Numbered from the stretch's first letter, positions 2,431 to 50,447 are shown. The stretch is 64,000 bases of DNA from Eledone cirrhosa (GCA_964016885.1 OZ024753.1:19344001-19408000), one strand, 5' to 3'. The notes: generated by a model not told the origin, from the sequence alone. Made by a program: numbers and translations.

Positions 2431-2638
2431 TATTGTTATACTTTGGGAGGGTCATGTTGCCAATAAGAAACACACGCACCAGTTGCTTTCACTTCAATTT
2501 ATTATATATAATAAATTGAAGTGAAAGCAACTGGTGCGTGTGTTTCTTAATGGCAACATGACCCTCCCAAAGTATAACAATATCGGATTCAACACACGAT
2601 TTCAGATAAAGAATCTTGCTAAACATATTCAAAAACGA
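2431..2638 (+). mobile_element. Short fold-back element (family shared with 49668-50447)
   Basis: 2431-2583 is a near-perfect palindrome followed by a ~55-nt unpaired tail (tcggattcaacacacg...aaacga); flanked by (TA)n. Confidence 0.85.
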
Positions 2639-2691
2639 TATATATATATTTATATATATATATATAAATATATATATATATATATATATAT

Positions 2692-3305
2692 GAAAATTAG
2701 GATTGGTGCTCTGAAATAGCGAGTTATACATGAATGTATGTATAGTGTATTTGGTAATACAATGTATGCCTAATTAAAACACATTTTGAAGACCTTGCGG
2801 TATTATTTTAAGGTAGTGACTATCTCACTTACTTCTTTCTTCAACAAACGAAGGGCGATAAGCTGACAGATCTGTTTCACACTTTTGGTGATCATCAGAA
2901 CTTAGCACTCGGTGACCTTTGTTGAAAATTATAGGGGCTGGATTCTAATAGAATTCCAGTAATAATCAGGAACTGATTATGCCGGTCCAGCAAAAATTGA
3001 AAATTAGGATTGGTGCTCTGAAATAGCGATGTATACATGATGCTGGACCGGCAATCGCTCTGTATAATCAGTTCCTGATTATTACTGGAATTCTGTAAGA
3101 ATCCAGCCTCTATAATTTTCAACAAAGGTCAGCGAGTGCTAAGCTCTGATGATCACCAACAGTGTGAAACAGATCTGTCAGCTTATTTCCCTTCGTTTGT
3201 TGAAGAGAGAAGTAAGTGACATAGTCACTACTTTAAAATAATAGCGCAAGGTCTTCAAAATGTTTTTAATTAAGCATACAGTATATTGCCAAATATACTA
3301 TACAT
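2692..3305 (+). mobile_element. Fold-back element with a hammerhead motif in each arm
   Basis: ~2738-2992 is inverted relative to ~3041-3305. The loop sequence gaaaattaggattggtgctctgaaatagcga is also present at 2692. Confidence 0.85.
3140..3185 (+). ncRNA. Type I hammerhead ribozyme motif
   Basis: taagct-CTGATGA-tcaccaacagtgt-GAAA-cagatctg-TC-agctta. Stem I taagct/agctta, palindromic stem III, GUC cleavage triplet. Mirror copy at 2859-2904 (-). Confidence 0.88.
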
Positions 3306-4643
3306 ATATTCATATATATATATATATATATATATGAATATATATGCATATATATGCATATATATACATATATATGCATATATATACATATATATGCATA
3401 TATATACGTATATATGCATATATATACATATATATGCATATATATACGTATATATGCATATATATACATATATATGCATATATATACGTATATATATATA
3501 TGTATATATATATATATATATATATAAATATATATATATATATATATATATATAAATATATATATATATATAAATATATATATATATAAATATACATATA
3601 TATATATAAATATATATATATATATATAAATATATATATATATATATATATAAATATATATATATATATATAAATATATATATATATATATATATAAATA
3701 TATATATATAAATATACATATATATATATATATAAATATATATATATATATATATATATATATATATATATATAAATATATATATATATATAAATATATA
3801 TATATATAAATATATATATATATATAAATATATATATATATAAATATATATATATATATAAATATATATATATATATAAATATATATATATATAAATATA
3901 TATATATATATATATATATATATATAAATATATATATATATATATATATAAATATATATATATATATATATAAATATATATATATATATATATATAAATA
4001 TATATATATATATATATATATAAATATATATATATATATATATAAATATATATATATATATATAAATATATATATATATATATAACTATATATATATATA
4101 TATAAATATATATATATATATAAATATATATATATATATATATATATATATATATATATATATATAAATATATATATATATATATACATATATATATATA
4201 TATATATATATATATAAATATATATATATATATATAAATATATATATATATATATATATATAAATATATATATATATATATATATATAAATATATATATA
4301 TATATATAAATATATATATATATATATAAATATATATATATATATATAAATATATATATATATATATATATAAATATATATATATATAAATATATATATA
4401 TATATATATATAAATATATATATATATATATATATAAATATATATATATATATATATAAATATATATATATATATATATATAAATATATATATATATATA
4501 TATATATAAATATATATATATATAAATATATATATATATATATATATATAAATATATATATATATATATATATATATATATAAATATATATATATATATA
4601 TATATATATATATATATATATATATATATATATATATATATAT
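3306..4643. repeat. (TA)n microsatellite with periodic TAAA and GCA interruptions
   Basis: Directly visible. Confidence 0.98.
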
Positions 4644-4644
4644 C

Positions 4645-6480
4645 TAATATAAGATCAAAATAAGGTTAAAGGAGTTCCATGTATTTTATTATGCGCATTT
4701 CAAAAACAAACATCATCATGCAATAATATTTGTGTTTTCATCAGATAAAACAGGAGAACATGATATGAAGGCTAAAAAACACTTGTGGATAGTGCAGTTT
4801 TAAATCAACATATGAAAAGTGGTTTTAGATTGATGTGTGATATTGGGAAAAATATTTTATTTAGAGGGGGGGGGAGGATGAAAAAGTGGAGGAGATGAGA
4901 GGGAGAGATGGGTAATAGAGAGAATGAGATAGTTTTTATAACTGAGAGAAGATACATTGTTTTACATAGAGAGGTTGAAAACCGTTGGAAGATAATGTAT
5001 AGATTAAAAGAATTTGAAAATTAGCGATGGGAAAGATATGTACGAGGAAAAATATTTTATTTAGGGAGGGGGGTGGAAAGGATGAAAAAAGGGGAGGAGA
5101 TGAGAGTGAAGGTGGAGAGGGAGAGATGGGTGATAGAGAGAAAGAGATAGTTTTTATAACTGAGAAAAGATATATTGTTTTATATAGAGAGGTTGAGAAC
5201 CGTTTGGAAGATAATGTATGAATTAAAAGAATTTGAAAATTAGCGAAGGGGAAAATTATTTGCGAGGAAAGAGAGGGAGTTTATGTATGAAGATAGAGAG
5301 AAAAAAAATAATAATTGTGGATGAATATTCTAACGTTAAAAAGGTGTATGTTGATAAGTATTGTGGCAATTTCAAAATTAACGAAGAGAAAAAAAATTAT
5401 TAGGGTTTGTGTGTAGAAGGATTTGAGAAAAATAATGTGAAGTTAAAGTTTGTATATTGAAGGAATTGATAATATGTGCGAAGAACGAGTTAATATGTAT
5501 TAAGAATGAGTTTTTTGATGGGGAGAAAAAAAAAAAAATTAAGGATGAAATTGAGATTAAAAAGTTTTATTTCATTACCCTCTTTCTATCTTCACCTTGT
5601 AAAATCCTTCATAACATATACATTTGTTTTTTTGACGTTAGAATATTCATCCGCAATTATTATTATTTTTTCTCTCTATAATAAAACTTTTTAATCACAA
5701 TTTCATCCTTAATTTATTTTTTTTTTTCTCCCCATCAACGAACTCATTCTTAATACATATTAACTCGTTCTTCGCACATATTATCAATTCCTTCAATATA
5801 CAAACTTTAACTTCACATTATTTTTCTCAAATCCTTCTACACACAAACCTTAATAATTTTTTTTCTCTTCGTTAATTTTGAAATTGCCACAATACTTATC
5901 AACATACACCTTTTTCACGTTAGAATATTCATCCACAATTATTATTTTTTTCTCTCTATCTTCATACATAAACTCCCTCTCTTTCCTCGCAAATATTTTT
6001 CCCTTCACTAATTTTCAAATTCTTTTAATTTATACATTATCTTCCAACGGTTCTCAACCTCTCTATGTAAAACAATATATCTTTTCTCAGTTATAAAAAC
6101 TATCTCTTTCTCTCTATCACCCATCTCTCCCTCTCATCTCCTCCCCTTTTTCATCCTTTCCACACCCCTTCTCTAAATAAAATATTTTTCCCAATATCAC
6201 ACATCAATCTAAAACCACTTTTCATATGTTAATTTAAAACTGCACTATCCACAAGTGTTTTTTAGCCTTCATATCATGTTCTCCTGTTTTATCTGATGAA
6301 AACACAAATATTATTGCATGATGATGTTTGTTTTTGAAATGCGCATAATAAAATACATGGAACTCCTTTAACCATCTTTTGATCTTATATTATGTATACT
6401 CCAGTCCTACAAACTGTAGAGTGCTTCTTATCCGATATCTGCATTGCTTTATTGTACTACAATAAAACTCACCTCCTACA
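4645..6480 (+). mobile_element. ~1.8-kb fold-back element with HHR and ~88-nt 3' tail
   Basis: 4647-~5560 is the reverse complement of ~5690-6392. The left arm has an internal duplication (~4850-5030 vs ~5045-5250). Both ends lie in (TA)n. Confidence 0.88.
6287..6353 (+). ncRNA. Type I hammerhead ribozyme motif
   Basis: ttttat-CTGATGA-aaacacaaa...tttgttttt-GAAA-tgcgca-TA-ataaaa. Stem I ttttat/ataaaa, palindromic tgcgca stem III. Mirror copy at 4684-4750 (-). Confidence 0.88.
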
Positions 6481-48632: not shown

Positions 48633-48897
48633 TGACTAGGCTGTAGTACCACCGTGGAAACATTTGTAAGCACACGGAATAAATTACCTTTTTATGATGT
48701 CTACTTGTTATTATTCATTCTTTATATACACTCCGGAATACAGAAGGATCAGGAACTAAGTTTCTTCAACAATTCTTCCATAACTCGTAGAGTAACCTCT
48801 TACCGTACGTCAACCATATCCAGTGTAGTAATTAACCATTACTACATCTTGGATAATCCTATACCTAATATATATATATATATATATATATATATAG

Positions 48898-49080
48898 ATG
48901 AGATTCTACAGCACTAGAACTGTTTCATTCTTTAGAAATCATCAGAGATTCCTGATTATTTCTAAAGAATGAAACAGTTCTAGTCCTGTAGAATCTCATA
49001 TATATTAAAACTTTTATACTCTGCAATATATTGAGTACCTTACTCACTGTGGTTACCTCGTATTCAACCCGGAATAACGT
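48898..49080 (+). mobile_element. Short fold-back element that is essentially an HHR and its antisense plus tail
   Basis: 48945-48997: gagattc-CTGATtA-tttctaaagaat-GAAA-cagttctagtcctg-TA-gaatctc. The inverted arm retains an intact CTGATGA. Confidence 0.8.
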
Positions 49081-49299
49081 ATATATATATATATATATAT
49101 ATATATATATATATATATATATATATATATATATATATATATAAATAAATATATATATATATATATATATATATATATATATATATAAATAAATATATAT
49201 ATAAATATATATATAAATAAATATATATATATATATATATATATAAATAAATATATATATAAATATATATATAAATAAATATATATATATATATATATA

Positions 49300-49598
49300 T
49301 ATTATTATTATGTAATAAACAATATAAGGCAATTATTCCATTTACCAGTGGTTTCTTAAAAGCAAAAGGTTTTGCTTTCAATCCTCAGAATGAAAAATCC
49401 TGGTTTGTTTATTGAATTTGGATTCTAAAAACGGTTTTTGAGGATTGAAAGCAAAACCTTTTGCTTTTAAGAAACCACTGGTAAATGGAATAATTGCCTT
49501 ATGTTGTTTATTACATAATAATAATAATTTAGCTCTGTTGCCTACATAGAGCACTCTTTTTTCCTGGACTTTTCCGATGGAATTACTTCATTCATACA
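49300..49598 (+). mobile_element. Fold-back element with HHR and ~70-nt tail
   Basis: 49300-49387 is inverted relative to 49439-49528. HHR at 49336-49394 (-): ttcatt-CTGAGGA-ttgaaagcaaa..ttttgcttttaa-GAAA-ccactgg-TA-aatggaa. Confidence 0.82.
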
Positions 49599-49667
49599 TA
49601 TATATATATATATATATATATAAATAAATATATATATATATATATATATATAAATAAATATATATAA

Positions 49668-50447
49668 ATATTGTTATACTTTGGGAGGGTCATGTTGCCA
49701 ATAAGAAACACACGCACCAGTTGCTTTCACTTCAATTTAATTTAATATATATTTATAAATTTACAAATTTATAAATTTCTGGTTGGTTGGTTGGTTCCAC
49801 AACCAGATAGTTGTTTATATATATATAGTCATAGTTCTTTCGTCACACACTCTGTGACCTCTTCAGTGACTGGGGATTTCTTTCTTCGTTTCTGTGCCTT
49901 TCCTTTCTTCTATCCTACGCCATTTTGTTTGTGTGTTGGTTGCGTGCTCAGTTTGCGCATGCGCCACATCCGGGTGTCTGTGTGTGTTTGTGTTCATTTT
50001 TCTATTTTTCTATTTTTCTATTTTTCTATAAACAAACAAATCTAAATAGAAAAATAGAAAAATGAACACAAACACACACAGACACCCGGATGTGGCGCAT
50101 GCGCAAACTGAGCACGCAACCCACACACAAACAAAATGGCGTAGGATAGAAGAAAGGAAAGGCACAGAAACGAAGAAAGAAATCCCCAGTCACTGAAGAG
50201 GTCACAAAGTGTGTGACGAAAGAACTATGACTATATATATATAAACAACTATCTGGTTGTGGAACCAACCAACCAACCAGAAATTTATAAATTTGTAAAT
50301 TTATAAATATATATTAAATTAAATTGAAGTGAAAGCAACTGGTGCGTGTGTTTCTTATTGGCAACATGACCCTCCCAAAGTATAACAATATCGGTTTCAA
50401 CACACGATTTCAGATAAAGAATCTTGCTAAACAAATTCAGAAACGAA
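49668..50447 (+). mobile_element. Near-perfect ~345-bp-arm fold-back element with HHR and ~55-nt tail
   Basis: HHR at 50188-50232 (+): agtca-CTGAAGA-ggtcac-aaagtgt-gtgac-GAAA-gaac-TA-tgact; mirror at 49827-49871. Confidence 0.9.

What the first reader, a model, noticed from the sequence alone, without database searches (positions are those of the whole stretch)
2431..50447. Fixed asymmetric ends: the inverted arm starts a family-specific 55-90 nt inside the 3' end
Seen: 2431 and 49668 have different arm lengths (~75 vs ~345 bp) but the same left end (tattgttatactttggg) and the same ~55-nt unpaired tail. 9440 and 13445 likewise share a left end and an ~80-nt tail. 9045 and 48898 share an ~80-nt tail, and 11158 and 46075 share the left start tacgtacatacatat. 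Single copies at 4645 (~88 nt) and 49300 (~70 nt) also have tails. Inference: a defined second priming or template site exists, and only the turn point varies. This is a mechanistic signature related to the Penelope 3' 'tail' extension.
Basis: partly seen in the sequence, partly recalled or inferred. Interest (0 to 1): 0.72.

Follow-up and report, generated by a model that had tools for sequence, protein, structure and literature searches.

The report
Penelope retrotransposon tails mark two starts
These hairpin-shaped inserts in TA repeats are likely the shortened ends of Penelope-type jumping genes, and their fixed, uneven ends fit a known pattern of two internal copying start points; the less familiar part is a small predicted RNA stem just past the inner end in most families, which may set that start.

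Summary
Mostly real. Ten families of head-to-head inverted inserts sit in (TA)n with a one-sided tail of 38-133 nt, mostly 54-86. A1/A2 and B1/B2 end at the same base although their arms differ (77 vs 348 bp; 60 vs 194 bp). Family C is looser, family D is only partly as stated, and one B copy breaks the rule. Six families have a scripted type I hammerhead on the tail strand, and a broken Hydra-clade Penelope ORF lies in the window. The architecture is published (PMC3846280, PMC8557442), and the tail is known to lie between two internal reverse-transcription starts (PMC11167929). Not found in my six paper searches: tails this long, a weak TA microhomology at the inner end (mean 2.3 nt vs 1.1, P about 0.01), and a bulged RCTC..GAGY stem just past that end in 7 of 10 families. 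The same stem is in published Hydra consensi, twice and 61 nt apart in one. Likely mechanism: both nicked TA strands prime at separate RNA sites. This scan noted the stem and twin priming earlier on other DNA. A variant of a known kind.

The parts
2430..2637 (+). A1 fold-back: arms 2430-2506/2507-2583, perfect centre in a TA run, 54-nt tail 2584-2637
49668..50447 (+). A2 fold-back: 348-bp arms, 28-nt spacer, hammerhead 50193-50227 on the tail strand, tail 50392-50447
9437..10160 (+). B1 fold-back: 194-bp arms, 260-nt spacer, inner site 10080-10083, stem at 10089, 77-nt tail
   Evidence: reads laid on 9891-10142
13444..13642 (+). B2 fold-back: 60-bp identical arms, inner site 13562-13565, stem at 13571, 77-nt tail
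47186..47341 (-). B3: B tail with stem at 47257, but a 16-bp inverted arm that does not end at the inner site (exception)
48892..49079 (+). C2 fold-back, 74-nt tail, stem at 49018; only the 3' half of a hammerhead (by eye)
9044..9192 (-). C1 fold-back in reverse orientation, decayed short-arm end, stem at 9098
11156..12194 (.). D1: inverted arrays of a hammerhead-bearing unit of about 430 nt; both ends near the inner site, no long tail
39424..41011 (.). D2: tandem and inverted unit copies; about 55-nt tail at the left end, inner-site end at the right
46075..46672 (+). D3: left end in a non-TA flank, tail end identical to D2's
49300..49597 (+). E fold-back: 91-bp arms, hammerhead intact in the left arm (49388-49343, minus strand), stem at 49532, tail 67-71 nt
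4639..6479 (+). F fold-back: long arms, hammerhead 6293-6347, stem at 6398, tail 83-86 nt
2692..3313 (-). G: partial tandem plus inverted arm, hammerheads in both arms, 38-nt tail at the left, imperfect stem at 2724
10597..10930 (-). H1 fold-back, 80-nt tail at the left, imperfect stem at 10674
41742..41885 (-). H2: solo copy ending at the H inner site, hammerhead 41833-41785, no tailed partner found
53786..53925 (-). H3: solo copy ending at the H inner site, no tailed partner found
52908..53757 (+). I fold-back, 550-nt spacer, tail about 70 nt, degenerate stem near 53697
1192..2051 (-). J1: tandem unit showing two end sites about 133 nt apart, each followed by an RCTC..GAGC stem (1719, 1589); the 65-nt inverted arm ends near the second site
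328..463 (+). J0: solo copy ending at the same base as J1's left end
43343..44860 (+). Broken C-terminal GIY-YIG Penelope-like ORF with Hydra-clade motifs; not shown to be the partner of the tailed families

Best explanation
The inserts are likely 5'-truncated or non-coding ends of hammerhead-bearing, TA-targeting Penelope-like retroelements (probably Hydra clade), likely built at each landing when both nicked strands of a TA repeat prime reverse transcription at two different fixed internal sites of the element RNA. Shown in sequence: two arms with their 3' ends pointing outward into (TA)n, family-specific inner and outer end sites, variable centres, and hammerheads on the tail strand. Inferred: (1) the GIY-YIG endonuclease nicks both strands of (TA)n, which is its own reverse complement, so both 3' ends are equivalent primers; (2) one primes at the outer site and the other at the inner site, helped by a few bases of AU/UA pairing, and the tail is the distance between the sites; (3) each cDNA stops at a variable point and the two are joined, sometimes through a short self-complementary run, which gives the variable turn point and spacer; (4) least certain (about 0.5): a bulged RCTC-hairpin-NN-GAGY RNA stem places the enzyme a few bases 5' of it, and a second copy of the stem would set the outer site.
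For: End coincidence: same base in A (2 of 2), B (2 of 3) and J (2 of 2), within about 3 nt in H (3 of 3); tail end identical in B (3 of 3) and D (2 of 2), within 2 nt in A. Spacers range 0-550 nt over 12 fold-backs. Hammerhead motifs: 13 with score >=11 against a mean of 0.33 in 30 shuffles. Solo copies H2, H3 and J0 end at the inner site without a tailed partner. Arms are more alike within than between copies in D (92-96% vs 79-82%) and A (98.6-100% vs 95.9-97.3%). TA overlap at the inner site: mean 2.3 nt over 10 families vs 1.11 local null, P=0.0097. Stem within 20 nt of the inner site in 7 of 10 families vs shuffled mean 0.055 (max 2 in 2000). Inner helix pairs only with a 2-nt 3' bulge (mean 2.18 pairs vs 0.36/0.09/0.09; background 0.70). 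Same stem read by eye in 3 of 6 published Hydra consensi, twice and 61 nt apart before the ORF in Hydra-1_Ajap. In vitro, a Poseidon PLE cleaves and extends both strands and starts at two internal sites that bound the tail (PMC11167929). Reads repeat B's tail end.
Against: No autonomous partner is linked to any tailed family: the window's Hydra-type ORF matches only itself. B3's short arm ends about 45 nt off-site and D's inner ends spread over about 20 nt. The stem is absent in A and D and degenerate in I; G, H and one J stem carry an A.C mismatch; offsets are 2-8 nt in five families but 12-17 nt in C2 and J. The motif was defined after seeing these tails and after a lead from earlier notes, so the shuffle test is post hoc. 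Three of the five well-paired inner helices are family B. Minimum-energy folds often prefer other pairings (B2, B3, C2; only 2 of 7 tail regions have z below -2, one of them family D). A second stem after the outer site is visible only in J and absent where the template is visible in D and G. In B1 one arm is closer to B2 (96%) than to its partner (89%). PMC11167929 reports no homology between start site and cleaved DNA. Genome-wide support for the inner site is thin: one group of 19-20 contigs, consensus agreement 0.63-0.67, median loose length 10-11 nt, with 481 rows not shown.
Confidence: 0.7

Rival explanations
1. One priming event at the outer site; the cDNA then snaps back and copies itself until it stalls just before the hairpin, and is joined to the other target end through TA microhomology. 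The inner site would be a stop, not a start.
For: Explains near-perfect centres (spacer 0-6 nt in A1, B2, C2, B3), the stop about 5 nt before a stem and the TA overlap. B3's early stop fits. Self-priming was proposed for such palindromes in PMC3846280.
Against: Solo copies H2, H3 and J0 end at the inner site with no tailed partner found, and D1 has both ends near it. Eight of 12 spacers are 15-550 nt. Both tail boundaries are RT starts in vitro (PMC11167929).
Confidence: 0.14
2. [quoted passage not shown]
For: This is the view stated in PMC8557442. The inner sites are AT-rich, and the D. virilis tail is needed for endonuclease recognition (as summarised in PMC11167929).
Against: Later in vitro mapping puts RT starts at both tail boundaries. 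The stem pairs in one strand register only, which suits an RNA or single-strand signal.
Confidence: 0.07
3. The whole asymmetric hairpin is a MITE-like unit that moves intact and later loses variable parts of its centre.
For: A1 could be derived from an A2-like copy by central deletion. B1's left arm resembles B2 more than its own partner.
Against: Arms share copy-specific variants in A and D. End sites persist across subfamilies 79-89% alike. Solo and tandem forms share the ends, and hammerheads lie on the tail strand.
Confidence: 0.04
4. Insertions were symmetric and one end was later eroded back to an internal TA run by microsatellite slippage or deletion.
For: TA overlap at the junctions. 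D's ragged inner ends lie in TA/CA-like sequence. B3 and D3 may be such deletions.
Against: Other TA/AT runs in the arms are not used as ends. Young copies with 99-100% identical arms (A2, B2) already have the full tail. Ends track a stem.
Confidence: 0.05

Closest known systems
Inverted pLTR plus one-sided tail insertions of endonuclease-bearing Penelope-like elements (Arkhipova et al. 2013, PMC3846280; Craig et al. 2021, PMC8557442)
   Same: Head-to-head inverted 5'-truncated copies, a tail on one end only, palindromes at the inverted junction, microsatellite targets.
   Different: Published tails are 30-40 bp; here 38-133 nt, mostly 54-86. The inserts here have no ORF. TSDs cannot be read in (TA)n.
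PAc (Poseidon from Anolis carolinensis) internal initiation (Frangieh et al. 2024, PMC11167929)
   Same: Tail equals the stretch between two fixed internal ends, downstream of a hammerhead; both target strands are cleaved and extended in vitro.
   Different: PAc starts in an AC-rich stem-loop inside the ORF with no homology to the cut DNA. Here the inner end lies 5' of a bulged RCTC..GAGY stem and shows a weak TA overlap. That paper does not derive the inverted structure from two-ended priming in the parts I read.
Hydra clade of C-terminal EN+ PLEs (PMC8557442 section 11, Files S1, S2, S7)
   Same: (TA)n insertion, hammerheads near the 3' end, the same bulged stem in 3 of 6 consensi; the window's ORF has the CxCx5C linker and CxxC/CxH around E and N.
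   Different: The stem, its duplication and 55-60 nt tails are in the deposited sequences but not described in the sections read. No tailed family here is tied to an ORF.
Animal non-LTR retrozymes (PMC7229834, search listing only; 10.64898/2026.07.22.740005, part 1 of 5 read)
   Same: Families D, G and J are short non-coding tandem units; D and G carry a type I hammerhead. Retrozymes are proposed non-autonomous PLE derivatives.
   Different: Here they occur as short inverted arrays with PLE-type ends; self-cleavage and circles are untested.

Membership tests
EN+ Penelope-like element insertion | Inverted 5'-truncated copy joined head-to-head, 3' ends outward | tested here: met
   polarity from hammerheads
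EN+ Penelope-like element insertion | Tail at one end only | tested here: met
   Present in 14 fold-backs (A1, A2, B1, B2, C1, C2, D2, D3, E, F, G, H1, I, J1); D1 nearly symmetric; B3 tailed with an off-site short arm
EN+ Penelope-like element insertion | Tail length 30-40 bp as published | tested here: not met
   Only G (38 nt) of 10 families is in range; the others are 54-133 nt. Published Hydra consensi also show about 55-60 nt by eye, so this lowers 'typical tail', not 'PLE'
EN+ Penelope-like element insertion | Type I hammerhead on the sense strand of the pLTR | tested here: met
   Scripted hits in A, D, E, F, G, H (6 of 10). B (U3-A8 variant, cf. PMC4209133) and C (3' half) by eye only; none found in I, J. 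Rfam listed only 6589-6632, below its gathering score
EN+ Penelope-like element insertion | RT plus GIY-YIG ORF between pLTRs | tested here: not met
   No ORF found attached to a tailed family; they are truncated or non-autonomous, so membership rests on non-coding marks
EN+ Penelope-like element insertion | Target-site duplication | tested here: inconclusive
   Flanks are (TA)n on both sides in nearly all copies
Hydra clade | Insertion into (TA)n | tested here: met
   exceptions are D3's left end and C1's tail end
Hydra clade | CxCx5C linker, CxxC and CxH flanking E and N, C-terminal GIY-YIG (ORF at 43343-44860) | tested here: met
   Translation compared by eye with section 11 and alignments; Pfam gave no hit on two fragments; no tree was built
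Hydra clade | N-terminal RWK and DKT motifs | tested here: inconclusive
   That part of the ORF is missing or decayed
Hydra clade | Tailed families descend from Hydra-clade pLTRs | tested here: inconclusive
   The stems of E, B and F resemble Hydra-1/2_Ajap, Hydra-2_Amil and Hydra-1_Crog by eye; no ORF link; A and D lack the motif
Two-site internal RT initiation (PAc type) | Biochemical initiation at both tail boundaries | not testable with these tools
   Needs purified protein; only junction evidence here
Non-LTR retrozyme (D, G, J) | Tandem non-coding units, each with an active type I hammerhead; circular RNA | tested here: inconclusive
   Tandem units seen; hammerheads in D and G, none in J; activity and circles untested

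The most novel reading that the evidence does not exclude
TA-targeting Hydra-clade Penelope elements use a telomerase-like template-positioning signal: two copies of a bulged RNA stem, conserved from coral and sea cucumber to this genome, each placing one reverse transcriptase of a dimer a few bases upstream, where a nicked TA end pairs with 2-5 bases. The tail length would be the stem spacing, and the inverted structure the direct product of two-ended priming.
Probability: 0.4. Interest if true: 0.7.

Novelty: new variant of a known kind. Interest (0 to 1): 0.42.

Why it matters
How Penelope-like elements form inverted, tailed insertions and target microsatellites is named as an open question in PMC8557442, and only one PLE has been reconstituted (PMC11167929). 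These junctions give exact predicted start sites and a candidate cis signal that can be mutated in the existing assay. Because PLE RTs are the sister group of telomerase RT, a structure-defined start with short primer alignment would bear on how telomerase-type template use arose. The architecture itself is already known.

Tried and rejected
No whole genome is held, so genome-wide end mapping on an assembly was impossible. Family A could not be checked in reads, so its fixed ends rest on two copies. The family B read test covered 9891-10142, 18 nt short of the tail end; the end was read from loose-end consensus lines. The large read-end peak at 10030 is taken as a RAD restriction-site artefact (inference), and contig depths were not used as copy numbers. 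No RNA holder was listed. The repeat finder was swamped by TA runs. Rfam returned mostly microRNA look-alikes of hairpins, all listed ones below their gathering scores; 37 of 187 rows were not shown. The first hammerhead pattern required CGAAA and found only 2; it was replaced. The X-drop junction script overran into TA-like tails and crashed; it was replaced by a strict rule, which scores A2, C1, F and J1 as zero overlap because of impure flanks, and these rows were kept in the count. Tail-versus-tail alignment gave only weak similarity (best z 3.5 of 45 pairs). H2's arm against its distal side gave z 2.5, below the shuffle maximum. Long-read fold-back artefact rejected: arms differ within copies and stop at element sites. 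The supplements of PMC11167929 held as text had no passage with my terms; its figures S1-S2 could not be seen and may show inverted copies. PMC13282606 passages say nothing on these structures. Sequence look-ups of A and B tails in earlier notes found nothing.
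Full report
Setting. The window is AT-rich, eukaryote-like DNA with many (TA)n tracts (bases 24001-36000 seen by script only). No whole genome is held. A self-comparison with microsatellites masked showed many local inverted repeats bounded by TA. I aligned arms, printed every end in element sense against the continuing template and applied one strict junction rule.

Observation. A1 and A2 have arms of 77 and 348 bp, end at the same template base and carry 54-56 nt tails. 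B1 and B2 have arms of 194 and 60 bp, the same inner end and 77-nt tails ending at the same base. E and F have tails of 67-71 and 83-86 nt. C2 has a 74-nt tail; C1's short end is decayed and can be placed only within about 8 nt. The D example is weaker: D1 (11158) has no long tail, D3 (46075) starts in a non-TA flank, and D's inner ends spread over about 20 nt, although its tail end is identical in D2 and D3. B3 has the tail but a 16-bp short arm ending about 45 nt off-site. Further families G, H, I and J follow the pattern, with tails of 38, 80, about 70 and 133 nt. Spacers at the turn run from 0 to 550 nt in 12 fold-backs. So the turn varies and the ends are mostly, not always, fixed.

Check outside the window. 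Runs of one species label hold the region. Laid on family B, loose-end consensus lines in two RAD runs of one study continue the tail to the position of B1's end (10160) and then into TA: rows of 732, 785 and 381 reads in X21, and 727, 917 and 384 in X22, agreement 0.80-0.87. RAD reads pile on few loci, so these are not copy counts. A group of 19 and 20 contigs in X1 and X2 (one sample) continues to the inner site and then into TA, with agreement 0.63-0.67 and median loose length 10-11 nt, so this is weak; 481 rows were not shown. Family A was not tested in reads.

What the elements are. A relaxed type I hammerhead scan found 16 motifs, 13 with score 11 or more, against means of 0.97 and 0.33 in 30 shuffles. 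Hits lie on the tail strand in A, D, E, F, G and H. B has a U3-A8 core variant and C only the 3' half, both by eye; the variant and the palindromic loop 3 are described for PLE hammerheads in PMC4209133 (passages). A broken RT plus C-terminal GIY-YIG ORF at 43343-44860 has the CxCx5C linker and the CxxC/CxH motifs that define the Hydra clade (PMC8557442 section 11) and resembles the published Hydra alignments by eye. Pfam missed it, and it is not linked to any tailed family.

Signals at the inner site. TA overlap averages 2.3 nt over 10 families against 1.11 in a local null (P=0.0097), with four impure-flank copies scored as zero and kept. At the outer site, where the template is visible, overlap is 3 nt in D, 1 nt in G and unclear in J. 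An RCTC-N7-20-GAGY stem lies within 20 nt after the inner site in 7 of 10 families (5 of 10 within 10 nt), against a shuffled mean of 0.055; offsets are 2-8 nt in B, E, F, G and H and 12-17 nt in C2 and J; it is absent in A and D and degenerate in I. The inner helix pairs only with a 2-nt 3' bulge (mean 2.18 pairs in 11 stems; 0.36, 0.09 and 0.09 in other registers; 0.70 in 37 background matches), and 5 of 11 stems versus 2 of 37 background matches reach three pairs, three of the five being family B. Energy folding supports the stem only in some families. The motif was chosen after seeing the tails and after leads from earlier notes, so the test is post hoc. The independent check is the deposited Hydra consensi (PMC8557442 File S7, read by eye): a clean stem near the 3' end of Hydra-2_Amil and Hydra-2_Ajap, two copies 61 nt apart before the ORF of Hydra-1_Ajap, a variant in Hydra-1_Crog, and none complete in Hydra-1_Amil or Hydra-1_Obim. 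In the window, J shows two end sites each followed by a stem; D and G show no second stem.

Mechanism. PMC11167929 (parts 1-2 of 4 read) shows that a Poseidon PLE cleaves and extends both target strands and starts at two internal sites that bound the tail. Applied here (inference), both nicked ends of the self-complementary TA repeat prime, one at each site; the cDNAs stop at variable points and are joined. Solo copies ending at the inner site (H2, H3, J0) and D1 favour a start over a snap-back stop. Higher within-copy than between-copy arm identity in A and D favours building at each insertion; C is inconclusive and B1 goes the other way. The role of the stem is the least certain step.

Comparison and novelty. 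The inverted pLTR with a one-sided 30-40 bp tail is in PMC3846280 (passages) and PMC8557442 (passages and sections 11 and 15, supplement parts 2, 52, 53). Tandem hammerhead units as PLE derivatives are in 10.64898/2026.07.22.740005 (part 1 of 5). Six searches found no paper describing the stem, the longer tails or twin priming for PLEs; the library lacks most subscription journals, and figures and bioRxiv supplements could not be seen. The term twin priming for L1 inversions is recalled, not from a call. Earlier notes of this scan reported the stem on other pieces of this genome and twin priming in other genomes; they are leads, not support.

Verdict. The added value is a set of exact, testable start-site predictions and a candidate RNA signal. 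New variant of a known kind; interest 0.42.

Noticed in passing
window 10081 (run X21): 360 reads begin at the B inner site with AT-rich sequence on their 5' side (agreement 0.57): possibly tail-only insertions, or a diverged subfamily.
   Followed up: no
window 57613-60341: Tandem satellite of about 47 bp, about 90% alike, about 2.7 kb long.
   Followed up: no
window 26235-37620 and 13734-14501: Several copies of a non-LTR retrotransposon ending in (AAT)n; RVT_1 hit at 34349-36169.
   Followed up: partly
window 6547-7950, 12225-13364, 41040-41590, 46910-47110: Other TA-bounded islands with a hammerhead close to one end (6626-6595, 41505-41543 with a U3-A8 core, 47004-46956; about 12240-12290 a variant by eye) and no inverted arm: probably ends of further Penelope-like families.
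   Followed up: partly
window 328-463 and 1192-2051: Two J copies face each other 3' to 3' across a TA tract of about 730 bp, both ending at the same base.
   Followed up: partly
window 43119-43352 and 44992-45183: The Hydra-type ORF is followed by two inverted pieces of its own upstream region in non-collinear order; no hammerhead found there.
   Followed up: partly
window 47355-47500: A tailed end (B4) with features between families B and C, followed by a GC-rich tandem repeat of about 48 bp at 47492-47725.
   Followed up: no
window 46600-46672: Family D has a different unbulged hairpin (ACTT/AAGT) spanning its ragged inner end; this region folds with z -3.1.
   Followed up: partly
window 32066-32163, 46699-46826, 52377-52490, 55753-55937, 56952-57087, 63608-63969: A dispersed SINE-like repeat of 100-150 bp in at least six places.
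   Followed up: no
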